Shown piece after piece: positions 1 to 19,937 of a stretch of DNA of 55,976 nt. The notes beneath the pieces are model-generated. The model worked only from the letters and a program-made list of their open reading frames with translations. It was not told where the DNA came from and did no database searches. Location: contig CAUYUJ010000120.1 of assembly GCA_963575745.1 (NCBI GenBank), forward strand, positions 62,001-117,976, in the 5' to 3' direction. The position numbers and the translations under genes are program-made. Each line of letters opens with the position of its first letter. The stretch's first letter is position 1. The DNA comes from Prorocentrum cordatum. Its lineage: Eukaryota.

Positions 1-2050
1 CCATGCCCTCGACAACTAACGACCCCGTAGTGCAAACCAATGGTGCAAGTAACGCATACTGAAGATAGACAAGAATATTGGCATGGCACATAGCTCTCTT
101 AGCGTTTTGAAGGCTGCAGTGGTCAAACGCTTGTTTGATATCGGCATTCGCAATATGGACCGTTTGATCCTTTCCCCAGACGTCCCCATGTTCAGCAAGA
201 GCCTTGAGGGCCCCCACAATTTCCACAGTCTTACGTCCCTCCTGGAAGCCGTAGATGCCCAGAGGTCCCATGAGCCCAGCCCGAGAGACAAATTGTTCGA
301 CCAAGATCACCACACAAGCATAGTACCAACGGCTGAGACTGTTTTGCAGACAGAGGTACCGTGCATCTGTCAATGATGTCAAGCTCGGCAGCTTGGGCAT
401 GAAGGCGATCAAAATCTGCCTCCAGTCCTGCGGAAACTGCCGTGTCAATCGAACTATCCCATCAAACATCCGAGCTACACTGCGCAAAGTCGCCCACGGC
501 AACACCTTGAGTAGTTCGCAAGGCAGCCTGTCGGGACCTGTGGCGCGCGTGGACTTGAGACGTGACCGTGCCTGGCACACCGCCGCCATTGTCAGTCCTT
601 CTGTGCAGTACCCATCACATAGGTTCTGTTGTGCATCCTTCCTCAACTCCTCCAACATCTCCACATCCCGTCCTCTGACCTCCTCCGAAGTAGATCTCTG
701 TCCGGTGTACGCTCTGATCTCCTCCGCCCACTCCTCCGTGTCCTCTGATATCCGTCCCTGCACAATAAGATGCTTGATGCTGTGACGTACTTTGCGCCTG
801 CAAGCTGGGGAGGACCACGCGGCCAACGCCGCGCGATATTCCCTCCGGTGTCTGTTGGCACGTCTGCGCAAAGTGGGTACGTCCACTGACACAGGCAAAG
901 GCTTCTGTCGCAGAGTCTCCTGGCAAGCCGTGAGCTCAGCAGGTCTATCTGGCGGTAGTCCCCGTCCCGCGGTGGCAGTCGTGAATCGGATTTCCTCCTG
1001 CTCTGTGCAAGCCCGAATAGTAGTCGACACAAGGTCCCCAGGAGAACAAGTAGTGTTGGCATCTCCTAAGACCCGATCGATTTCCTTTCGTGCCATGTTG
1101 AGGTCTCCCCAATTCACAGTCTTATAACCCACCAGACTCTTTTCACGAGCTGCCGTCGGGATGCTACGTTTGACCAGCTCATCGCCTGGATCACTAAAAG
1201 TCCCCTGAAGCAGGCCGTGGTCACTAAGACGACTACGATTTGTCTTTCCCCCATTATACATAATCGTTCCAACCGTCAACTTATCAATCACCCACGTCCT
1301 GGGAACAGAAATGTAGTCAAGAACCTTCTTACACGTCCCCCACCGAGATGTTTCGTAACTCTCCCATGTATGTAGTCGTCGTGGCAAGAAAAAATTGGCA
1401 GCCTTCATCCCCAGGCGCCCTAAAAAGCAAAGAACACGCTCGCGAAGTTGCTGTCGTACATCCCTCCTCTCCCGTTGTGCACCTCCCTCCTCGCAGGTCC
1501 TCCTCTCCTCCTTGGTAGCGCATCCCACCGCCTCATAGACTGTCCCAGTGCGTGAGCACTGCAGCTGGGTGGATGGAGGCAGCTCGACGTTGGCATCGAG
1601 CAGCACAGATACCGTCGCCCCTTTCCAGCGGCTGCGCAGAGTGAAAATGACTGACTCGAGTGTGTCCAAAACCCCACACTGCACATCTACAGCGTTCTCG
1701 ACGCCGGGGTCGGGAAGATACGCAGAGGCAACAATCACAGGAGCACTCCCACTACCGCAGACCACCACGCAGAACCGTTCGTACTGACACAGTGATTCAC
1801 GCACACATGTACTCCACTCTTTGTTACATAGTAACCCACACTTACCGTCACAACTCACGCGATATGATAGACCACGCCGTCTGATATATGCATCGAATTT
1901 GCCTCCGAAAAGATTCTGGCATTCCTGAACACCCCAGATGCTATCTCGCATATAGAGAGGCTCCTCAGGATCTCATTCCCCTTGAAATTAGCCGACCCCG
2001 CCCGATTGAGGTCCCAGCTGCCCAATCGGATCCCCTTGAACGGTGTACGG
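1..2050 (-). pseudogene. LINE ORF2 (AP endonuclease + reverse transcriptase), frameshifted
   Basis: Manual translation gives EN motifs IRLGSWDLN (~2005-2031), WGVQEC (~1919-1936), SAYLP (~1713-1727), LLDANVE (~1583-1603), HTW..VLDYI (~1310-1375) and SDH (1217-1225). RT motifs: ATGPDRLPCELLK (~505-545), W..ILIAFMPK, YGF (245-253), ADIKQAFD (122-145). Confidence 0.9.
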
Positions 2051-2061
2051 CGTCGTCGTCG

Positions 2062-3525
2062 TCACATCCTCCTGTTGACTTCCGTCTCGATATCAGCCTT
2101 CGTCTTAGTAAACGCAGGTATGAGCTGATGCAATCTGTCAACACTCTCACTCGATACCTCCCATGTCGCCCGTGTCGTGGTAAGCTCGGCCAGCAGCATA
2201 GGTCTCTGAGCAGCCGTAGTGGGTACCGTCCATATAGTAGATTTGGGCGGTCCCATTTCACCTCGCACAGCGATGGCCTCGATGCCAATCTGTGTGCACA
2301 TGCTCCGAAGCGTGCCGCAGAAGCGCCCGACTGTCTTGACATGGTCCCTCTTCCACGCAGGGCACTCGACACTGACTTTGAGCAGCTCAGGATTGATTTT
2401 CTGCTTCATATTCTCGATGAGGCACTGTGATGCTGCGATCTGGGTTCCTGGAGGAGGCGCGGGGCGTTTGGCGGGGGGTACCGTCACAAGGTCGATGCAT
2501 CGTTTAGCCCTCCATATGATATCCCTGTCCGTCCCTGGCTTGAATTTGATGTTGGCAGATCCGAACATGTAACGACCAGCATTGATCCGCTCTGTACCGT
2601 CAACACACATGCACACGATCATCCTCCGAAAGACAGTGGTTATTAATATTATCGATGAGCACCTTCACATCCTCCCACATGAGCATCTCCTGAGACCTAC
2701 GATGCCTGTCATTCCAGTCGGTGACCCATCCCTTGAGTTCGACATAGGAGGGAGAGAAGTAGGTAGCTCCAGAAGCCTGGTATGTGCCCGTCCTGGTATT
2801 ATCAGGCCTCGTCGAAGCGTCACTGGCCACAGAACCGCTCGAACCTGTCCCTGGAGTCCCTGGACAATCGTCTCAAGTTGGTTTTGTTTAGTCTCCAAGC
2901 TGGAAGTCGCGACACCCTGCTTCTGGACCTGGGCCTGAACGTTGTCGATTTTGGTTCCCTGAACTCCTATGGCATCCTGGATCCTTTCAGTGTTGTCATC
3001 CATTTTGTGCATCATCTGCAATAGTAAACTCTGCATGTCATCCTTCCACTCCAAGGCGGCCTCTCTCTCAGCCAGCACTTCCTCACGATTACACTTCACA
3101 GGGGGGGCACCACCATCCACCGACATGTTATCAGCATGCTCTGGCATTGCGTCGAGACACTGAGGACCGTATCCCCACGAGTGCAACCACTGTCGAGTCA
3201 CCGTACGTTCACTAAGAGGTACTGCAGGTTCACTGTCTGGAGTGGAGTCGGCAGTATGCAATGTCCCGTCCAATGGAAAGTCACCTGAAATCTTCTCAAT
3301 ATCCTCAAACTGTCTTTTCCGAGACGCCCTTTCGACAGCAGAGTCTGGCTTCTGTCCGTAATCCTGTGAGTACTGCAAATATGGTACTGTCGGGGAAATA
3401 TCCTCCAGTTGGAATCTTCTCGCAAGAACTGAAAAGTCGTATCCGTCCGTCTTCGCACACAAGCAATACGAGAAAACAAGCACAGCAAACAAAGCAGGCG
3501 GCCTAGCTGACCTCGCAGATGCCAT
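2062..3525 (-). pseudogene. LINE ORF1 (coiled coil + globular C-terminal region), split into three frames
   Basis: Overlapping ORFs 2665-3525, 2600-2830 and 2062-2622 read as one protein. Heptad-like coiled coil MQSLLLQMMHKMDDNTERIQ...LETIVQGLQ. It lies directly upstream of the EN-RT ORF. Confidence 0.75.
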
Positions 3526-3606
3526 ACTCGCTGATGGCAGCGATGGCTGCCGCGCCGTCTCCCCGCGGCGCCGACACCCCCTGAGCTCCTGTGGGATCCA
3601 GGAACC

Positions 3607-3642
3607 CTAGAGCCGAGATGTCTTGAGCCAAGATGGCTACGG
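3607..3642 (-). other. Tandem DinoSL relics at the LINE 5' end
   Basis: Reverse complement of 3622-3642 is CCGTAGCCATCTTGGCTCAAG (20/21 to DinoSL). It is followed directly by ACATCTCGGCTCTAG (3607-3621; 11/15 to CCATTTTGGCTCAAG). Confidence 0.9.
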
Positions 3643-4379
3643 GACCCTCGTAGAGCTTTCAAATGCGAGAGCTCGCAGACGATTTTATTTCGGAGTTGAT
3701 CTGCAATGTGTACGTACGATGGCGAGCGGGAAGAAGATCGAATATGAGGAGACACTTATTAGAGGTCTAGCGAGTTCTTGAATTTCGAGACATTGAGTTT
3801 AAACCGAGCAAACTTATGCAACACTTCCGTCGTTTTTGTTTTTTTTTTTTTTGTTTGTTTTTTTTGTTTTTTCTTCTTCTTCTTCTTCTTCTTCTTCTTT
3901 CTTATTCCTTCTTCTGCTTTCTCGAAATACCGATTCTCAAAACGAATTGTCAAATCTCACACAATGTTTACCCAACCGACCCAAAGTTCCCGCATTGTCC
4001 GCCCGGGCCGGGTGGTCGAACTAGCTCCACCCCGCGCCGGAATTCCTCTAGCTCATCGATGCCGACGAGCTCTACGAGGTACTGGCCCCCCAGCGCGCCG
4101 GAATTACTCTCTAGCTTCGCCGCTTCGCTCTTAGGGGAGCTCTACGAGTCACTGTGATCCCGCCGTATCTCAGCAGTCGTACCTCCTTCACGGGCAATAT
4201 GTGTCTCTGTATCCGCCCCCCCCGTTCCCCTCCCGATGCGCCCACTTCCAAGCATCCCTTCGTAATTCGGGACTCAAGGTATTGATCTGTTTGCTCATAT
4301 CATAAAGGCAGTTCTGTATGCTTTTGATGATGCGCTATATAGATATATATGTGTATGTATATATATATATATATATATA

Positions 4380-4560
4380 TCATTGTGGCAGCGGTATTTT
4401 CCATTCAGCTGACTGGCTACAATCTGGCTCCCACTTCTCATCTCCAAGCAGATGCCATCGGGGTTGAGTCGCCAGCGAGTCTCGTCTTCCTTCAGAGCGG
4501 CCAATCTACTTGCTGATCTATCCAGACCCTTCTGCAGCTGGTCTTCCGTCATCTCCTCTC
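4380..4560 (-). pseudogene. Degenerate RNase H fragment, probably retroelement-derived
   Basis: CLEMRSGSQIVASQLNGKYRCHN resembles the RNase HI motif v.i.sDSqlVv.QlnG.yrc, with the catalytic D read as G. Confidence 0.5.
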
Positions 4561-5084
4561 CCCGACCGCCCAGATATACCTTCCCGAAGTCGGATCACGC
4601 ATGAGACAATACTCCAAGACATAGACTAACTGGAGCTCTCTCAAAGTACGCCACCGTACTCCGTAAGGAATCTTTCCAAGCAATTTCTGTCCAGATCATA
4701 TCCTGAGTCCACAGGGGCCCCTTGGTGAGTTCGAGGAGTGACCTTCACGGCGTCAGCCCCTATAGTAGTTTCCCCACAGCGGGCCCTCGCAATAGCCCTG
4801 GCCTTCTGGGAACCGACGGATTTGCATAATACATCTCTTTGCTCCGTCCGAGCACCAGACGCATGCAACATGCAAAAGCAGCTCTGCATAGAAGCAGTCG
4901 GCCAGCCCCGACGACCCCGGCAACGCGCGCGTTTGGGAGCAGGCAGCACTCAGGGTTCAGGGGGTCAGATAGGCCCACAGCACGTCTCCTCATCCTGGTA
5001 GTCTCACGACGTCGGCTACACCGAGTCGCCCCAGGGCAGCCAGGATGAAGAGGATGTACTGGTAGCGGTGTGCCACGCGAGATA

Positions 5085-6637
5085 TGACTCGTAGAGCTTC
5101 GCTAAGGGCGAAGCGGCGAAGCTAGAGAGTAATTCTGGCGCGCTGGGCGGCCAGTACCTCGTAGAGCTCGTCGGCATCGATTTGTCGATGATTCAAACAG
5201 TTCGACGCAAGTTTTGCATGATTAAATTCGATTTTTCGGAATTCAACCATTTATTAGAGCTCTCGTATTTTTCATATTCGATCTTATTCCCGCTCGCCAT
5301 CTTAATCTCAGGTCGATCCGGTACATATTATTGTCAACAAGCATATGGGCGGGATTGGCTGTTTAGTGTCATCTTGACAGGTGCAGTCTGTTTTCTGAAC
5401 TGAACTCGAGCTGCAGGTGAGCTACAGAGCTGTTCGGCACAGCAATCGAAAGATAATCATCAGAAGCGCTAGTCTCAAGTATCTAGATGCCCGAACTCGG
5501 TCTGCTACCACAGCTGGGACCGAACAACTATTCGTACCTTTTTTTTTCCCCTTATCGAGAGATGAGGATGAGTTAATCGATGTAACTCAAGCTGCAGATG
5601 AGCTACAGAGCTGTTTGGCACAGCAATCGAGAGAAAATCACCCGGAGCGCTAGTCTCAAGTATCTAGATGCCCGAACTCGGTCTGCTACCAGGGCTGGGT
5701 TCGAACAACTTTTCATGCTCTTGTATTTTGTGGAGATGATGCTGAGGTTCTTGATGTAACTCGAGCTGCAGATGAGCCAAAGAGCTGTTTGGCACAGGAA
5801 CCGAAAAGCAATCATCAGAAGCGGTAGTCTGAAGTATCTAGATGCACCAACACGGTCTGCTACTAGAGCTGGGCCCGAAAACTATTTGTGCTCGGCTAAT
5901 TTTTCAGAGATGATGAGTTTCTCGAGATAGCTCGAGCTGCGGATGAGCTACAGGGCTGCTTGGCACAGCAACCGTAAGAAACTCATCATGAGCGCTAGTC
6001 CTGAGTATCTCGATGCCCAAACTCGGTCTGCTTTCAGAGTTGGAACCAAAAACGCTATTCGTACTCTACTTCTAATTTTTGCAGAGATGACGATGCCTTC
6101 CTTGATGTAGCTCGAGCTGCAGATGATGTTAGAGCTGTTCAGCACAGCAACTGGACGAATGTCATCAGGAGCGCGAGTTACAAGTATCGGCATGTTCGAA
6201 ATCGGTCTGCATCCAGAGCTGGAACCAAAATACTATTCGTACTCCTGTTCCTCCTCCTCTTCCTTCTCCTCCTCCTCCTTCATCTGCTCCTCCTCCTCTT
6301 TCTCCTCCTGTTCCTTCTCTTTCTCCTTCTTTCTCCTCATCTTCCTCCTTCATCATCGTCGTCGTCCTTCTTCTCCCCCTCCGCCCTCCCCGCTGCTTGT
6401 CATCCTCCTCTTCCTGCTGCCCCTCCTTTTCCTCCGCCCCTTCTCCTCCTCCTTCTTCCTTGGCCTCCTCCATCTCCTTCTCCTCCTCGCTCCTTCGTCT
6501 CCTCCGCGTCCTCCTCCATGAGGCCGCGCCCTCGCGCGCGCATAAGGCGAGATTGCCTCGCCCGCGTTCCATTCGTGTAGGTGGAGGAAGTTCTACGAGT
6601 TCCCGGCGGTAACCAAGGTTTACGGTTTACCGCCGGC
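5085..6637 (+). mobile_element. Apparently complete family A element
   Basis: 5' subTIR ACTCGTAGAGCTTC at 5087-5100 overlaps hairpin GCTTCGC-TAAGG-GCGAAGC (5096-5114). The 3' subTIR GAAGTTCTACGAGT at 6587-6600 (13/14) is followed by a 10-bp-stem hairpin at 6603-6636. Confidence 0.75.
5400..6243 (+). repeat. Tandem array of about five 171-181-bp units
   Basis: Anchor TAGTCTCAAGTATCTAGATG and its variants recur at 5470, 5651, 5825, 5996 and ~6175. Confidence 0.9.
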
Positions 6638-6639
6638 TA

Positions 6640-7070
6640 CCTGTCTATGTTCCTCAGCTCAGGGTCCGTCGAGATCCCCGAGCCCGTCACCTCAGTCCGC
6701 TCGTCAACATCACACGCTGTGCATGCAATCTGTTTTGCAAAACATCACTGCTCATATAACGTAAGTTGCGCAAGTGACGGGCGGCAGGAGCTGAGCAGTA
6801 GCGAACGTGCATGTCGAAATCGGGCTCTCCAATCTTCGGCCCAGTCCTCCGCAGGCCGCTTCCGTCGACAACGCATTGCCGGTAGAAATCCCCCCTTCCT
6901 CCGCATGTGTCATCAGCGACGCGTGTGCATCACGTGTTGCGCCCTCGATGCCGCACAACAAGCGACTGCGTGTGTTGCTATCATATTTCTGCAACTTCTT
7001 CGTTAACGAAATGGGTGACCTCGCATAGCAGGATCTGCCCATCCAAAAACTTTTCTTTGCCTCAGCCAAT
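6640..7070 (-). pseudogene. LINE ORF2 post-RT C-terminal fragment
   Basis: AKKSFWMGRSCYARSPISLTKKLQKYDSNTRSRLLCGIEG fits the RTE-like post-RT pattern A..aF......isl..Kl..y.s.V.s.LLyG.E. Confidence 0.6.
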
Positions 7071-7199
7071 CATGCAGGCGCGGAAATCTTGCATTCCGCG
7101 CGAGTGAGGCTGCTATTTCATGGAGGAGGACGTGGAGGAGAAGAATGAGTGAGGAGGAGGAGGAGGGGCTCGAATAACATAGAGAACTACGATGATCTC

Positions 7200-8170
7200 T
7201 TAAAAAGTTAGCAGAGTAGAAGTAGTTGTCAGGTTCCAGCTCTGGTGACAGACCGAGTTGATGCATCTAGATGCGTAATATTTTAGCGTTCCTGATGATT
7301 TCATGTCGATTGCTGTGCCGAACAGCTCTGTAGCTCATCTGCAGCTCGAGTTAAGTAGAGAAAATCATCATTAGCTCTTTACAAAGAATTGCAGAGTGCG
7401 GGTAGTTTTATGGTCAGAGCTCTGGTAGCTGACCCAGTTCGGGCATCTAGATACTTGAGAGTAGCGCTTCTGACGATTCCCTTTTGATTGCTGTACCGAA
7501 CAGCTCTGTTGCTAATCTGCGGCTCGAGTTAAGTTAAGCAAGTGATAATCATCTCTTTGTAACCGGCAGAACGCGAATAGTTTTTTGGCCTCGGCTCTGG
7601 TAGTAGACCGATTTGAGTTAAGAGAACTAGTTTTTATGTATGTGTATATATATATATATAGATATATAGAAAGCACAAGCAAAGAGTACGAATAGTTGTT
7701 TGGTGCCAGCTCTGGTAGCAGCCCGAGTTCGGGCATCTAGATACTTAAGACTAGCGCTCCTGATGATTCCCTTTCGATTGTTGGGCCGAGCCGTTCTGTA
7801 GATCTCGAGTTAAATAAAACAAATCAGCATCATCTCTTTAACCAATAGCCGAGTGCGAACAGCTTTTTGGTCCCAGCTCTGGTAGCATACCGAGTTCGGG
7901 CATCTAGATGCTTGAGACTAGCGCTCCTGGTCATTCCTGTTCGATTCCTGTACGAAACATCTCTGTAGCTCATCTGCAGCTCGAGTTAAATAGAGAAGAG
8001 CAGCATCATCTCTTTGAAAAATTAGCAGAGCACGAATAGTTTGTTGGGCCCAGCTCTGGAAGCGGACCGAGATCGGGCATCTAGATGCTTGAAACTAGCG
8101 CTCCTTGTCATTCCCTTTCGATTGCAGCGCCGAACAGCTCTGTAGCTCATCTGCAGCTCGAGTTAAGTTA
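7200..8170 (-). repeat. ~175-bp tandem array, inverted relative to 5400-6243
   Basis: Recurring CCAGCTCTGGTAGCA..CCGAGTTCGGGCATCTAGATACTTGAGACTAGCGCT and GCTCATCTGCAGCTCGAGTTAA. Confidence 0.9.
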
Positions 8171-8949
8171 AGAAACTGACAGCATCTGCCAAGATAACTT
8201 TGAACAGCCGATCCGTCCGAGTGCTTTCTGACCGTAATACTGGTCCGATCGACCTGATATTGAAATGCCGAGCAGAAAAAAGATCGAAGATGGGTAGGGA
8301 AAATATTAGAGCCCCAGCAAATGGTTGAATTTCGAGAAAATAGTTTTAAATTTGGCCGAGCAACAACAAAACTGGGGGTCCGCGTTGGTTACCGCCGGGA
8401 ACTCGTAGAGCTTCCTTGCGATGTGCATGAATGGCGCGCGGGCGCGGCAATCTCGCGTTCCCCGCGCGCGAGGGCGCGGTTTCATGGAGGAGGGCGTGGA
8501 TGAGAAGAGCGATCGAGGAGGGGGGGGGGGTGAGGAGGAGGAGGAGGAGAAGGCTGAGGAGCAGAAGCAGGGGGGGGGGAAGGAGCAGGAGAAGGAGAAA
8601 GAGGGGGGGAAGGAGAAAGAGGATGAGGATCACGAGCAGGAGGAGGGGGAATGGTGGAGGGGAGTAAGGAGATGATGGTACTAATGATGATGATGAGGAG
8701 GAGGAGGACGAGGAGGAGAAAGAGAAGTAGGAGGAAGATCAATAAAAAAGAAGCAGATGGAGAGGGAAGAGGAGGAGGAGAGGGGGGGGGAGGGGGAGGG
8801 GAGGGACAAGGAGGGGAAGGATAATGAGGAGGAGGGGCGGAGGAGGAAGAAGGGAAGTTCCTGTTCAGCGGTCTGCTCCCAAGCTCACTAGCTTGCCTGT
8901 AACTCCAACTATGTGATATCCAACGCCGTCTTTCATAAACATAGATAAC

Positions 8950-9740
8950 TGCAAATAACTATTTGGCTGCAGTTTTGGTAGCAGACCGATATCAGTCGTC
9001 TAGACAGTGTCGTTTGATGTGCATCTCAGCTCCTTAGCTGGCCTAGATCACGAATGTAATCAGGAAGCGCGCATCATCTCTCGTGCAATATTTACATTGC
9101 GAATAGTTTTCCAGTTGCATCGGCTGTTGCAGGCCAAATCCGACGCCTCGATGCCGCAGGCGACTGTGCCTGGTGACCTGCTTCTCAAAGTGCTGTTCTG
9201 CTCGCAGCCTACAGCTCAGATTCAGTAGAGAAAACTATCATCAGCTCTTAATAAAATAGCAGAGTGCGAATAGTTTTTTGGTTCCAGCTGTGGTGGCAGA
9301 CTGAGTTGAGGCACCTAGATACTTGACTAGTGCTGCTGATGATGATGCCCTTTCGAGTGGTGTGCCGAACAGATCTGTGGCTCATCTGCAGCTCGAGTTA
9401 TCTAAAGAAAAGTCATTATCGCTTAGTGAATGAGCAGATCACGAATAGCTTTTTGGTTCCAGCTCTGGTAGAAGATCGAATTCGGGCATCTAGATACTCA
9501 ATGCTAGCGCTCCTGATCCTCTTCTTTCGATGAATGTGCCGAACACTGCTCGGGGGCTCGAGTTAAGGTAAGAAAATTATCAAGATCGTAAGGAACTTAG
9601 CAGAGTACGACTAGTTTTTGGTTCCAGCTCTAGTAGCATACCGAGTCCGGGCATCTAGATGCTTCAGACTAGCGCGACACATGATTTTCTTTCGATTGCT
9701 GTGCCGAACAGCTCTGTAGCTCGTCTGTAGCTCGACTTCA
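8950..9740 (-). repeat. ~175-bp tandem array (first units strongly diverged)
   Basis: Same unit motifs as the array at 7200-8170. Confidence 0.85.
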
Positions 9741-10935: not shown

Positions 10936-12369
10936 GGAGAAAACCGACAGCCTCAATATCGCACTCAACAGCCGATCCCGCCCACATGCATTTGGAGGGT
11001 AATATCTACCCGATCGACTTGATATTAAGATGGCCAGCGGGAATAAGATTGAATATTAGTAGGAGAATATTTATGCTCTGAATAACTGTCGAATTTTGAG
11101 AAATCGATTTTGGTTTTAAATGGGCAAACAACAAAACTTCCGTCGAGATTTTTTTGGCCAACTAGCCCTCCACCGCGCTGGAATTACTCTCTAGCTTCGC
11201 CGCTTCGCTCTTAGGGCGGCCCTACGAGTCGCTCTCTAGCCTTGCCCCTTCGCTCTTGGGGAAGCTCTGCGAGTCATTGTCCGCCCGGGCCGGGTGGGCG
11301 AACTAGCTCCACCCCGCGCCGGAATTCCTCTGGTTCATCGATGCCGAAGAGATCCACGAGGTACTACGAGGAGTCATGTTCACCCAGCCGGCCCAGATTT
11401 CCCACATTGTCCGCCCGGGCCCGGTGGGCCACCTGGGGGCAGGCGGTGAACCGTCAAGCAGGTTGCCGCCGGGACCCTCGTAGAGCTGTCAAGTAGGAGA
11501 ACAGAGCTTCCTTTAAATCAGCTGATAACTCGCAGTTTTTTTTTTTTTTTTTTTTTTTGTTCTCTCGGATTTGATCTGCAATTCGTTCCATCCAGTGTTA
11601 TAGCAGTGATACCGGAGGTGCCACGATCTGAGAACTTACGGGCAAACGCAGCATAACCCACTACACGTGCAAAAATTACTTCGTTCCGACCTGCTCAAGT
11701 TTAATGCAGAAAACAGCGAGGATGAAATACGCCTCTACGAATGTTCTCGAATCTATCTTCTGATAATCCTCGAGCCACAAGCTTCCGCTTATGTAGATAG
11801 ATGCTTCTTGGCGTGCTGAATCCATCGGTGCAAATCAGAACTATGTAGGTTGCTTTCTGCTTGGGTGCAGTTCACGAACATCTTGAAAAATGCACCCCGG
11901 CGGCAGACGGGTCCTCCACGTCTTTTCACAGTAGTAGTCGAGCTACAGACCTGAGAATTTGACAGGCGAGCGCGGCATAAACCACTACACGTTAGAAAAA
12001 CATTGGTTTTCAAAAACGAATCTTCAACTTTCGCGCAGTCTCCAAAAAACCGACTCCAGGTCGTCACATTGTCTGCCAGGGCCGGGTGGGCCAACTCGGA
12101 ACTGGCGGTAAACCGTCAACCAGGTTATCGCCAAGACCCTCGTAGAGCTCTTGAATCACGGAATAGTGCTCAGAATTTGACGAGAAAGCTCAATTCAATA
12201 TCAGCGTAAACACTCGAAAGGATTATTCTCTGATCATTATAGGAAGTTGATTCCGCTAAGTTTTGATGATAGTAATATTACAGCTGCGGACCTGAAGATT
12301 CAACAGATCGACGCGCGATAACCTGTTACGGGTGCATAGAGTATTGGAGCTGTGTAGGACCAGGACGGG

Positions 12370-19076: not shown

Positions 19077-19106
19077 CTTTGTTGGCTCAAGTTATTCTGG
19101 CTCAAG
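19077..19106 (+). promoter_or_regulatory. Two tandem 15-nt DinoSL relics behind a candidate trans-splice acceptor
   Basis: TTATTTCCTTCAG|CTTTGTTGGCTCAAG|TTATTCTGGCTCAAG; each relic matches CCATTTTGGCTCAAG at 12/15. Confidence 0.85.
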
Positions 19107-19211: not shown

Positions 19212-19937
19212 ATGGGATCGACAGGTTTAATGGCAGCATTCCTGCCAGTGGCTGGGCTCATTCGTTTTGCGGGGAGCGGGCCGAAGTTGTGGGGCCGGCT
19301 TGTAAGGCCTTTTGTGCTCGGCATGGTGGTATTGACGGCCGCCACCGCGGTCTTGATGATGATTACACTGCCGTTATTTTGGGCAGCTCCACTCTTGATC
19401 GGCGGCTACTTGCTAGCATGCGTTGTCCTCTTCGAGGCCATCAGTTTCTGCACCAGCATGCAAGAATTCATCATTCAGACAGCACTGGAGGATATTGGTG
19501 TGCTCGAAATTCTTCGCGCGGAGTATGGGCGCGATACGCTTCCTGTTTTGGCGCGGAGGGAGAAGTATAAACATAAGGTTTGGTTTCTGATCGCGCGTTG
19601 TGCTTTGATGGGGGCAACGCTCTTATTCGCGGCAGCGCCGGGGATAGGCCAGTTGTTCGTTGTCTTACTCAATGGCTGGCTCTATGCGTGGCACCTCGTT
19701 GACAAGCAGCTGGTTCTCATTGGCCTGAACAAGTTTGATCAACAGTTCGGACACGTCATACGTAATTTCTTAACGTACGTGGCCTATGGAACAATAGCGC
19801 TCAGCTTGCTAATGGTGCCTGGGATTAATATATTTTTCTTTGCTGGTAATGCGTACGGTGGGGCGTTGCTCTTCAAGGAGTTCGTTGACGCCGAAACACC
19901 TGAGCAGAGATCTCTCCGAGAAAGGTTCACTTCTTGA
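19212..19937 (+). CDS. EI24/CysZ-family multi-pass membrane protein; intronless retrogene
   Basis: Uninterrupted 241-aa ORF from the ATG at 19212. N-terminal P..G......PKLW...V.P and C-terminal PGIG....LNGW.YAW...D and YG......MVPGIN......AYGGA resemble EI24/CysZ patterns. Several hydrophobic segments; SL relics upstream. Confidence 0.78.
   Translation: MGSTGLMAAFLPVAGLIRFAGSGPKLWGRLVRPFVLGMVVLTAATAVLMMITLPLFWAAPLLIGGYLLACVVLFEAISFCTSMQEFIIQTALEDIGVLEILRAEYGRDTLPVLARREKYKHKVWFLIARCALMGATLLFAAAPGIGQLFVVLLNGWLYAWHLVDKQLVLIGLNKFDQQFGHVIRNFLTYVAYGTIALSLLMVPGINIFFFAGNAYGGALLFKEFVDAETPEQRSLRERFTS

What the first reader, a model, noticed from the sequence alone, without database searches (positions are those of the whole stretch)
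3526..3660. LINE whose 5' end is a stack of spliced leaders: a self-renewing, trans-splicing-based 5' end
Seen: the LINE begins exactly with a 20/21 DinoSL, followed by an older 15-nt relic (11/15), ~80 nt of further UTR and the ORF1 ATG. Known: dinoflagellate mRNAs receive DinoSL, and re-integrated cDNAs are re-spliced at the SL-internal AG (CCGTAG|CCAT), leaving tandem 15-nt relics. Inference: this LINE has gone through at least two trans-splice/retrotransposition cycles. Each full-length insertion would carry its own splice acceptor, so the element could be cut out of host read-through transcripts and capped without an internal promoter.
Basis: partly seen in the sequence, partly recalled or inferred. 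Interest (0 to 1): 0.85.

Follow-up and report, generated by a model that had tools for sequence, protein, structure and literature searches.

The report
LINE copy starting with spliced leader
A broken copy of a dinoflagellate jumping gene (a LINE) starts exactly with the short leader that these cells splice onto their mRNAs, so it was copied from a fully processed mRNA; this extends a known retrogene signature to the mobile element itself.

Summary
A 20/21 DinoSL lies at 3642..3622. A decayed 15-nt relic (11/15) follows at 3621..3607, then 81 nt of UTR and the ORF1 ATG at 3525.

The 18 nt upstream of the SL belong to a repeat. Two other copies of that repeat in the window run on uninterrupted. 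Homology breaks exactly where the SL begins, so the SL is the 5' end of the inserted DNA.

The element is a divergent LINE. ORF1 has a coiled coil. ORF2 is colinear with a 1429-aa protein that carries RVT_1. This copy is defective, with two frameshifts in ORF1, and it runs off the window.

I could not reach other copies of the family or any RNA data. An unrelated, intact 8.9-kb LINE (L142) shows the same architecture with both ends visible: microsatellite, perfect SL, ORF1, EEP-RT-RNaseH ORF2, short A tail, microsatellite.

Best reading: LINE mRNAs are SL trans-spliced and copied almost to their 5' end. The relic implies at least two such rounds, with transcription starting upstream of the element. 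"Promoter-free self-renewal" is a reasonable inference but is not shown.

Precedents exist: dinoflagellate retrogenes, and SL-tagged LTR/LINE loci in flatworms. I rate it a new member of a known kind.

The parts
3643..3660 (-). 5' flank: the first 18 nt of a dispersed repeat (AGCTCTACGAGGGTCCCG, 3657..3640). Its last 3 nt (CCG) overlap SL positions 2-4.
   Evidence: The same 18-mer occurs at 11487..11470 (0 mismatches) and 12149..12132 (2 mismatches); expected by chance 0.05. Those two copies continue together, while this one continues into the SL (alignment A2).
3622..3642 (-). DNA-encoded DinoSL, 20/21 (T>C at SL core position 11). The internal AG acceptor is intact.
   Evidence: the only match in the window; 0 of 100 shuffles gave a match.
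3607..3621 (-). Decayed SL relic, 11/15, in the exact 15-nt register after the SL.
   Evidence: base rate 1.2e-4 per position; 0 of 134 control sites reach even 9/15.
3526..3606 (-). 81-nt 5' UTR without ATG.
2062..3525 (-). ORF1 (about 490 aa when intact, with a coiled-coil middle). Here it is split over three frames, with breaks near 2834 and 2602. The first frame stops at 2665.
   Evidence: Alignment A1 to the 472-aa relative P0002 gives 76/90/92% identity for the three pieces. X1 contigs carry +C after 2834 and +AC after 2602 (table 4).
2..1972 (-). ORF2: 657 aa, with an endonuclease-like N-terminus and the first RT motifs. It is cut by the window's left end.
   Evidence: BLASTP to P0001 (1429 aa): 28% identity over 654 aa, E 2e-57, colinear. 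P0001 has RVT_1 (E 7e-9), and its best PDB matches are human LINE-1 ORF2p. Pfam finds nothing in the window's own ORF2.
11470..11487 (-). Uninterrupted copy of the flanking repeat, used as the empty-site comparator.
12132..12149 (-). Second uninterrupted copy of the flanking repeat.

Best explanation
This is a defective, probably full-length copy of a multi-copy, highly divergent dinoflagellate LINE. It was inserted into an abundant repeat.

Its template was a mature LINE mRNA that carried the trans-spliced DinoSL at its 5' end. The element's reverse transcriptase copied that RNA to within 1-4 nt of the 5' end, so the SL became the first bases of the new DNA copy.

The decayed 15-nt relic behind the SL records an earlier round. 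An ancestral copy that already began with an SL was transcribed from flanking DNA upstream of it. It was trans-spliced at the AG inside its own SL, received a fresh SL, and was retrotransposed again.

Shown: the SL, the relic and their register; the SL as the boundary of the insertion; LINE identity; and the same architecture in an unrelated, complete LINE.

Inferred: the order of events; that transcription depends on read-through from upstream; and that the SL's AG is reused as a portable acceptor, which would make an internal promoter unnecessary.
For: - SL 20/21, unique in the window.
- Relic 11/15 in a register fixed in advance, p about 1e-4, with 0 of 134 control sites reaching 9/15.
- Homology to two uninterrupted copies of the flanking repeat ends exactly at the SL, with 3 nt of ambiguity.
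- No ATG lies between the SL and ORF1. The leader is 117 nt.
- ORF1 has relatives: 86% identity to P0002, and a partial match to a protein that NCBI names from Prorocentrum cordatum.
- ORF2 is colinear with the RT-bearing protein P0001.
- Contigs of run X1, 80-100% alike, cover the whole element. Summed word depth is 255-767 per bin, against 4.5-10 in bins 4273-5073. Depth is not a copy number.
- Independent case L142 (G001:C12, 9096 nt): (AGAGAC)n, perfect SL at 117-137, 93-nt UTR, ORF1 231-1343, ORF2 1907-8968 with Exo_endo_phos, RVT_1 and RNase_H, 32-nt 3' UTR, AAAAAA, (AG)n. It has no BLASTP similarity to P0001.
- The recycling model is described in passages of PMC3229502, PMC7245778 and PMC12014239.
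- The same window holds a host retrogene-like unit with two relics upstream of an EI24-family ORF.
Against: - Only one copy of this family could be examined at the DNA level. Whether the 81-nt UTR, relic and SL are shared by other copies is unknown.
- The 3' end, tail and target-site duplication of the window copy lie outside the window.
- The shared flank is only 18 nt, and upstream of it the three repeat copies differ.
- The contrast between SL and relic mismatches (1/21 vs 4/15) is only suggestive. My own Fisher arithmetic gives one-sided p about 0.08.
- L142 has no relic, so it shows one round only.
- Pfam finds no endonuclease or RT in the window's own ORF2.
- Of 15 SL sites in contaminant or MAG contigs that are not SL RNA genes, only 1 heads a LINE.
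Confidence: 0.72

Rival explanations
1. Chimeric 5' end. The SL, the relic and part of the UTR come from the 5' end of an unrelated host mRNA. They were joined to a 5'-truncated LINE cDNA by template switching during reverse transcription, so the LINE's own RNA need not have been trans-spliced.
For: No other copy of the family could be checked for the 81-nt UTR (searches found nothing). Template-switch chimeras are known for other LINEs (recalled, not from a call).
Against: The junction lies upstream of an intact ORF1 start, with an ATG-free leader. The unrelated LINE L142 has the same SL-UTR-ORF1 layout with intact ORFs. Two independent chimeras that each preserve a complete ORF1 are less likely than ordinary trans-splicing of LINE mRNA.
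Confidence: 0.08
2. The integrated SL acts as a promoter. Its T-rich core (TTTT/TTTG) serves as the element's own core promoter, as proposed for retrogenes. The LINE would then carry a promoter and would not depend on read-through.
For: The hypothesis is stated in passages of PMC6050394 and PMC5585692.
Against: Transcription starting at or after the SL's T-run would leave neither the AG nor upstream sequence for splicing, and would not produce an SL+relic stack. The relic here shows that an ancestor's RNA included its old SL from at least the AG onward. In this copy both T-runs are disrupted (TCTT, TCTC), but the copy is dead anyway.
Confidence: 0.1
3. SL captured once and then inherited. An ancestor acquired the SL and relic, and all descendants copy them as ordinary element sequence without renewed trans-splicing.
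For: One copy cannot distinguish renewal from inheritance. The mismatch contrast between SL and relic is not significant.
Against: Without trans-splicing, RNA would have to start precisely at SL nucleotide 1-2 in every generation. Upstream starts would carry flanking DNA along, yet in both LINEs the homology or flank ends exactly at the SL. The outer SL is better preserved than the relic (20/21 vs 11/15).
Confidence: 0.08
4. Not a retrotransposed SL at all. It could be a chance match, a fragment of an SL RNA gene, or a LINE that targets SL RNA genes (SLACS/CZAR type).
For: None beyond the presence of an SL next to a LINE.
Against: 0 of 100 shuffles give a match. The SL exon is complete to its 3' end and is followed by a relic and a UTR. 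It is not followed by the GTAC... intron seen in 7 SL-RNA-gene-like sites. The flank is an unrelated repeat. Rfam finds no RNA gene in the window.
Confidence: 0.02

Closest known systems
DinoSL-tagged retrogenes ('mRNA recycling', Slamovits & Keeling 2008; seen only as described in passages of PMC3229502, PMC7245778, PMC12014239, PMC6050394)
   Same: A DNA-encoded SL at the 5' end, followed by AG-truncated 15-nt relics that decay towards the 3' side. The implication is the same: reverse transcription of trans-spliced mRNA, followed by re-expression from upstream.
   Different: Here the tagged unit is the retrotransposon itself, not a host gene copied in trans. Song et al. 2017 (PMC5585692, passages) reported the GO term 'RNA-dependent DNA replication' enriched among relic-bearing genes, which implies such cases. 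I found no explicit description of a LINE 5' end made of SL in searches.
SL-bearing LTR/LINE loci in parasitic flatworms (PMC12582326, passage read)
   Same: The authors set aside 597 loci with partial leader sequences, mainly in LTR and LINE elements. [quoted passage not shown]
   Different: This is a different phylum and a different SL. It was noted in passing, without element boundaries, relic stacks or a proposed role in 5'-end formation.
LINEs processed out of host co-transcripts (R2 with its 5' ribozyme; recalled, not from a call)
   Same: Works alike if the inference holds: no promoter of its own, transcribed by read-through, with the 5' end made by RNA processing.
   Different: The processing here would be host trans-splicing, which also supplies a cap and leader. 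It would not be a self-cleaving ribozyme, and there is no fixed target gene.
Trypanosomatid LINEs: L1Tc/ingi with the Pr77 internal promoter (abstracts of PMC1874656 and PMC8190864 in listing), and SLACS/CZAR in SL RNA genes (listing, plus recall)
   Same: LINEs living in genomes where mRNAs are SL trans-spliced.
   Different: L1Tc uses an internal promoter and gives unspliced transcripts. SLACS/CZAR insert into SL RNA genes. The element here does neither.

Membership tests
DinoSL-tagged retrocopy (mRNA recycling) | DNA-encoded DinoSL at the 5' end of the unit | tested here: met
   20/21 at 3642..3622; unique in the window; 0 of 100 shuffles match.
DinoSL-tagged retrocopy (mRNA recycling) | Relic = SL truncated at its internal AG, directly 3' of the SL in a 15-nt register | tested here: met
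   11/15 at 3621..3607; base rate 1.2e-4; 0 of 134 control sites reach 9/15.
DinoSL-tagged retrocopy (mRNA recycling) | SL marks the boundary of the inserted DNA | tested here: met
   The flanking repeat is uninterrupted at 11487.. and 12149.. and is broken at the SL here. The boundary is ambiguous by 3 nt (CCG).
DinoSL-tagged retrocopy (mRNA recycling) | 3' A-tail and target duplication | not testable with these tools
   The 3' end lies beyond the window's left edge. In the second case, L142, an A6 run and the same microsatellite on both sides are seen.
DinoSL-tagged retrocopy (mRNA recycling) | Transcripts with a new SL joined at the relic AG | not testable with these tools
   No RNA run was listed.
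APE-type LINE (non-LTR retrotransposon) | Reverse transcriptase domain in ORF2 | tested here: inconclusive
   The window holds only the start of the RT, and Pfam finds nothing. ORF2 is colinear (E 2e-57) with P0001, which has RVT_1 at 505-724 and matches L1 ORF2p in PDB.
APE-type LINE (non-LTR retrotransposon) | Exo/endo/phosphatase-fold endonuclease N-terminal to the RT | tested here: inconclusive
   There is no Pfam hit. The AlphaFold model of residues 1-270 had mean pLDDT 39.7 and was not searched. Motif-like matches were seen by eye only (QECQ, DANVE, SDH).
APE-type LINE (non-LTR retrotransposon) | ORF1 upstream of ORF2; dispersed multi-copy family | tested here: met
   ORF layout. ORF1 has relatives. 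Many X1 contigs, 80-99% alike, lie across the element.
SL-RNA-gene-specific LINEs (SLACS/CZAR/CRE type) | Inserted inside an SL RNA gene, interrupting the SL exon | tested here: not met
   The SL exon is complete and joined to a relic and UTR. The flank is an unrelated repeat. No SL intron (GTAC...) follows, unlike the 7 gene-like sites.
Small-RNA/LINE template-switch chimera (U6-L1 type) | Whole small RNA, including its non-exon part, fused to a truncated LINE | tested here: not met
   Only the SL exon is present. It ends at the splice junction and is followed by a relic in register.

The most novel reading that the evidence does not exclude
Dinoflagellate LINEs as a class have given up internal promoters. 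They are transcribed as passengers of the long unidirectional host transcription units. They are cut out and capped by SL trans-splicing at an acceptor that every new copy carries in its own SL. The SL is re-made in each cycle, so the 5' end is repaired every generation. The same machinery, copying SL-capped and A-tailed RNAs end to end, would be the long-sought engine of the massive host-gene retroposition in dinoflagellates, rather than LTR elements.
Probability: 0.35. Interest if true: 0.7.

Novelty: new member of a known kind. Interest (0 to 1): 0.48.

Why it matters
Three points give it value.

First, it shows directly that a LINE's own mRNA is trans-spliced and is reverse-transcribed almost to its capped end. 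That makes LINEs concrete candidates for the reverse transcriptase behind dinoflagellate 'mRNA recycling'. The papers I read (passages only) leave this open or lean towards Ty1/copia (PMC6050394, PMC5585692, PMC3942190).

Second, the relic shows that at least one ancestor was expressed from outside its own 5' end. This is the key premise for a promoter-less LINE life style in a genome with little transcriptional regulation.

Third, SL plus relics at element 5' ends offers a simple marker for full-length LINE insertions, and a per-lineage generation count, in genomes where repeats are otherwise hard to annotate.

It is not surprising in principle. Dinoflagellate mRNAs are generally described as SL-capped, though DinoSL was recovered on only a minority of transcripts in two of the data sets read (PMC7245778, PMC10666404). 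A similar remark exists for flatworm retrotransposons.

Tried and rejected
- Whole genome of the window: not held.
- Other copies of the family:
  - ORF1 and P0002 scans of viral contigs, metagenome contigs (twice) and genome contigs found no relative.
  - A search with the alternative frame that reads through the SL found nothing.
  - The representative search gave 4 partial hits, none covering the N-terminus.
  - Earlier-findings look-ups by sequence and place were empty.
- Sequencing runs: no RNA holder was listed. Only one DNA holder was found (X1, share 0.21).
- Laying X1: bins of 267 nt and truncated tables (867 loose-end rows not shown) did not resolve whether other copies end at 3643. 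The lower depth in bin 3472-3738 cannot be interpreted.
- Structure of the ORF2 N-terminus: mean pLDDT 39.7, unusable, so no fold search was made.
- Screens for more SL-headed LINEs:
  - tblastn with five LINE proteins against 139 loci plus the window gave no hit except the window itself.
  - RVT_1 search of five more contaminated MAGs gave LINE-like ORF2 fragments (L153 with Exo_endo_phos, L154 with RVT_1) but no 5' ends.
  - An SL pattern search with up to 3 mismatches in those MAGs added one site on a 1.2-kb contig, not followed up.
  - A scan of viral contigs with the L142 ORF2 segment found nothing.
- A third relic (9/15 at offset 27) was rejected as chance.
- The tblastx hints of a second LINE at 30-36 kb were not confirmed by tblastn with P0001.
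- Supplements of the papers were not opened. Lists of relic-bearing genes in the supplements of PMC5585692 and PMC8045281 may already contain RT or LINE entries.

Full report
**What is there.** The feature lies on the minus strand. Read 5' to 3' on that strand, the order is as follows:
- a flank ending ...AGCTCTACGAGGGTC;
- CCGTAGCCATCTTGGCTCAAG (3642..3622);
- ACATCTCGGCTCTAG (3621..3607);
- 81 nt without any ATG (3606..3526);
- an ATG that opens ORF1 (3525).

The 21-mer matches the DinoSL core at 20/21. The core is quoted in PMC8045281 and PMC7245778. It is the only match with up to 3 mismatches in 56 kb, and none of 100 shuffles produced one.

The next 15-mer matches the AG-truncated relic at 11/15. 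In the window, 13 of 111,924 15-mers reach that level. These include the SL's own core and two relics at 19.1 kb. A composition model gives 1.0e-4. None of 134 15-mers that directly follow an exact SL in unrelated loci exceeded 8/15. Because the register was fixed beforehand, the relic is real in the statistical sense. The stated span also contains 18 nt of flank.

**Is the SL the end of the element?** The 18 nt AGCTCTACGAGGGTCCCG, whose last CCG doubles as SL positions 2-4, recur at 11487..11470 (exact) and 12149..12132 (2 mismatches). The chance expectation is 0.05.

In those two places the sequence continues as GCG(GC/AT)AACCTG(C/G)TTGACGGTT(C/T)ACCGCC... and the two copies stay alike. At 3640 the continuation is the SL instead (alignment A2). 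The LINE therefore interrupts a copy of a dispersed repeat, and the break coincides with the SL's 5' end to within the 3 shared bases. SL position 1 is not represented.

There are two limits to this argument. The shared flank is short, and the three copies differ further upstream. The other half of the interrupted repeat should lie beyond the element's 3' end, outside the window.

**Is it a LINE?** ORF1 (3525 onward) has three relatives among 5.8 billion proteins:
- P0002, 472 aa, 86% identical;
- a partial match to a protein that NCBI names from Prorocentrum cordatum;
- a short protein from a eukaryote protein collection.

Aligned to P0002, the window's ORF1 falls into three frames, with breaks near 2834 and 2602 (A1). 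Contigs of run X1 carry an extra C and an extra AC at exactly those places (table 4). This copy is therefore defective, or the assembly has two indel errors.

ORF2 (1972..2, open at the window edge) gets no Pfam hit. It is colinear over 654 residues with P0001 (28% identity, E 2e-57). P0001 carries RVT_1, and its best solved relatives are human LINE-1 ORF2p (5 sequences, E 1e-4 to 4e-4).

The endonuclease fold of the N-terminus could not be confirmed. The model had pLDDT 39.7.

Run X1 is DNA contigs holding 0.21 of the words. It laid 6211 records on the first 8 kb, 80-100% alike. Summed word depth was 255-767 in the LINE bins, against 4.5-10 in bins 4273-5073. This shows a multi-copy family in a related organism. 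It does not give a copy number, and it did not resolve the family's 5' boundary.

**Other copies and RNA.** I could not obtain DNA of any other copy of this family. The genome is not held. Four collection scans were blank. Two protein-level tricks were blank. No RNA run was available.

**An independent second case.** An exact-SL scan of prokaryotic genome contigs returned 20 stretches with 22 distinct SL sites.
- Seven sites are followed by GTAC... and look like SL RNA genes.
- Fifteen are not. One of these (L133, extended to the whole 9096-nt contig as L142) heads a complete LINE.

The layout of L142 is as follows:
- (AGAGAC)n up to base 116;
- perfect SL at 117-137;
- 93-nt UTR;
- ORF1 231-1343, with a RanBP-type zinc ribbon;
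- ORF2 1907-8968 (2353 aa), with Exo_endo_phos at 1010-1183, RVT_1 at 1496-1710 and RNase_H at 2059-2198;
- 32-nt 3' UTR;
- AAAAAA at 9001-9006;
- (AG)n.

Both ORFs are intact. There is no relic. ORF2 shows no BLASTP similarity to P0001.

Both ends are visible here. The element runs from the SL to a short A-tail inside one microsatellite, as expected for target-primed reverse transcription of a trans-spliced, polyadenylated mRNA. As in the window, the base before CCG is C and fits the flank.

Further screens found LINE ORF2 fragments without 5' ends, but no more SL-headed LINEs.

**How it most likely works.** Shown:
- The LINE DNA starts with an SL.
- A relic follows in register.
- The same start occurs in an unrelated LINE.

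Follows from the published recycling model (passages):
- The template RNA was trans-spliced.
- The SL+relic stack needs two rounds.
- In the second round the pre-mRNA must have contained the old SL's AG plus upstream sequence for the splice. Transcription therefore began in flanking DNA, not inside the element.

Inferred:
- Every SL-headed copy can be rescued from read-through transcripts, because it brings its own acceptor.
- No internal promoter is needed.
- The 5' end is renewed each cycle.

The better preservation of the outer SL (1/21 against 4/15 mismatches) fits renewal but is not significant. My own arithmetic gives one-sided p about 0.08.

Rivals are listed with their tests: a chimeric 5' end by template switching, the SL as a promoter, a once-captured and inherited SL, and chance or SL-gene targeting.

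**Comparison with what is known.** The signature is the one that defines dinoflagellate retrogenes.
- Song et al. 2017 found 'RNA-dependent DNA replication' enriched among relic-bearing genes. This implies that RT-coding units with relics were already in their lists.
- De Mendoza et al. 2018 describe Symbiodinium LINEs with conserved 5' UTRs and target duplications. The term search over the text found no 'spliced leader' or 'DinoSL', and the one 'trans-splic' hit concerns dinoflagellate genomes in general.
- A 2025 flatworm study set aside 597 leader-bearing loci, mainly in LTR and LINE elements. It suggested integration of trans-spliced retrotransposon transcripts.
- In six full-text searches I found no explicit description of a dinoflagellate LINE whose 5' end is the SL, nor of trans-splicing as a LINE's way of making its 5' end. 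Supplements were not read.
- Trypanosomatid LINEs solve the same problem differently. L1Tc uses the Pr77 internal promoter and gives unspliced transcripts (abstracts). Others insert into SL genes (recalled).
- The functional analogy to R2, which is cut out of a host co-transcript by its ribozyme, is recalled and not tested.

**Verdict.** The reading that the LINE was trans-spliced and retrotransposed at least twice is well supported. The 'self-renewing, promoter-free' reading is plausible and partly backed by the logic of relic retention, but it is untested. Novelty is modest: a new member of a known kind. The useful angle is that LINEs, rather than LTR elements, may drive dinoflagellate retroposition.

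Noticed in passing
window 19077-19106 (+), ORF 19212-19934 (+): Two tandem SL relics (12/15 each: CTTTGTTGGCTCAAG, TTATTCTGGCTCAAG) are preceded by a degenerate CCTTCAG. About 105 nt downstream, an ORF matches Pfam EI24/CysZ (E 8e-9). This looks like a host retrogene with the same SL signature as the LINE.
   Followed up: partly
loci L001-L119 (IMG/VR contigs, mostly giant-virus MAG bins): The exact 21-nt DinoSL occurs in 119 stretches. Of 132 distinct sites with 25 nt of upstream sequence, 126 are preceded by A (a full 22-nt SL). 112 have at least 80% A+T in the 25 nt upstream, with recurring motifs such as ...AAATATAAATTTTA or ...ACTAAACCA. 101 have an ATG within 150 nt (median 49) that opens an ORF of at least 100 aa. 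These are genome-encoded 'promoter + DinoSL' cassettes in front of many genes of putative dinoflagellate giant viruses. One literature search showed no obvious report in its listing.
   Followed up: partly
loci L120-L139 (prokaryotic MAG contigs): Several bacterial MAGs contain short, often GC-rich contigs with dinoflagellate hallmarks. There are SL RNA gene-like units (SL followed by GTAC...; L125/L139, L126, L132, L138). There are SL-headed ORFs at contig starts (L120, L130, L134, L135). L131 has an SL plus two perfect relics. This points to eukaryotic contamination of the bins.
   Followed up: partly
L128 (209-kb contig of a bacterial MAG), SL at 6001-6021 (-): An exact DinoSL sits between two copies of a 19-nt direct repeat (TTTTGCTTGCAGGCGTGAG), inside what looks like a genuine long bacterial contig. 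It is unexplained.
   Followed up: no
window 3739-4272, 5074-5607, 6409-6675, 7210-7476: The region upstream of the LINE is a mosaic of repeats. In run X1 these reach summed word depths of about 1e4 to 7e4. Several modules (GAGCTCTACGAG...) occur in both orientations. A tandem repeat of about 175 nt lies at 5403-6244, and A-rich tracts lie at 3830-3900 and 11535-11561 on the LINE's strand.
   Followed up: partly
L153 (G003:C78, 7111 nt) and L154 (G002:C59, 4067 nt): These contigs are open in one frame from end to end (2369 and 1355 aa). L153 has Exo_endo_phos; L154 has a weak RVT_1 match below Pfam's curated cut-off (24.6 vs 29.6 bits). They are internal pieces of very long LINE ORF2s, like that of L142, in other contaminated MAGs.
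   Followed up: partly
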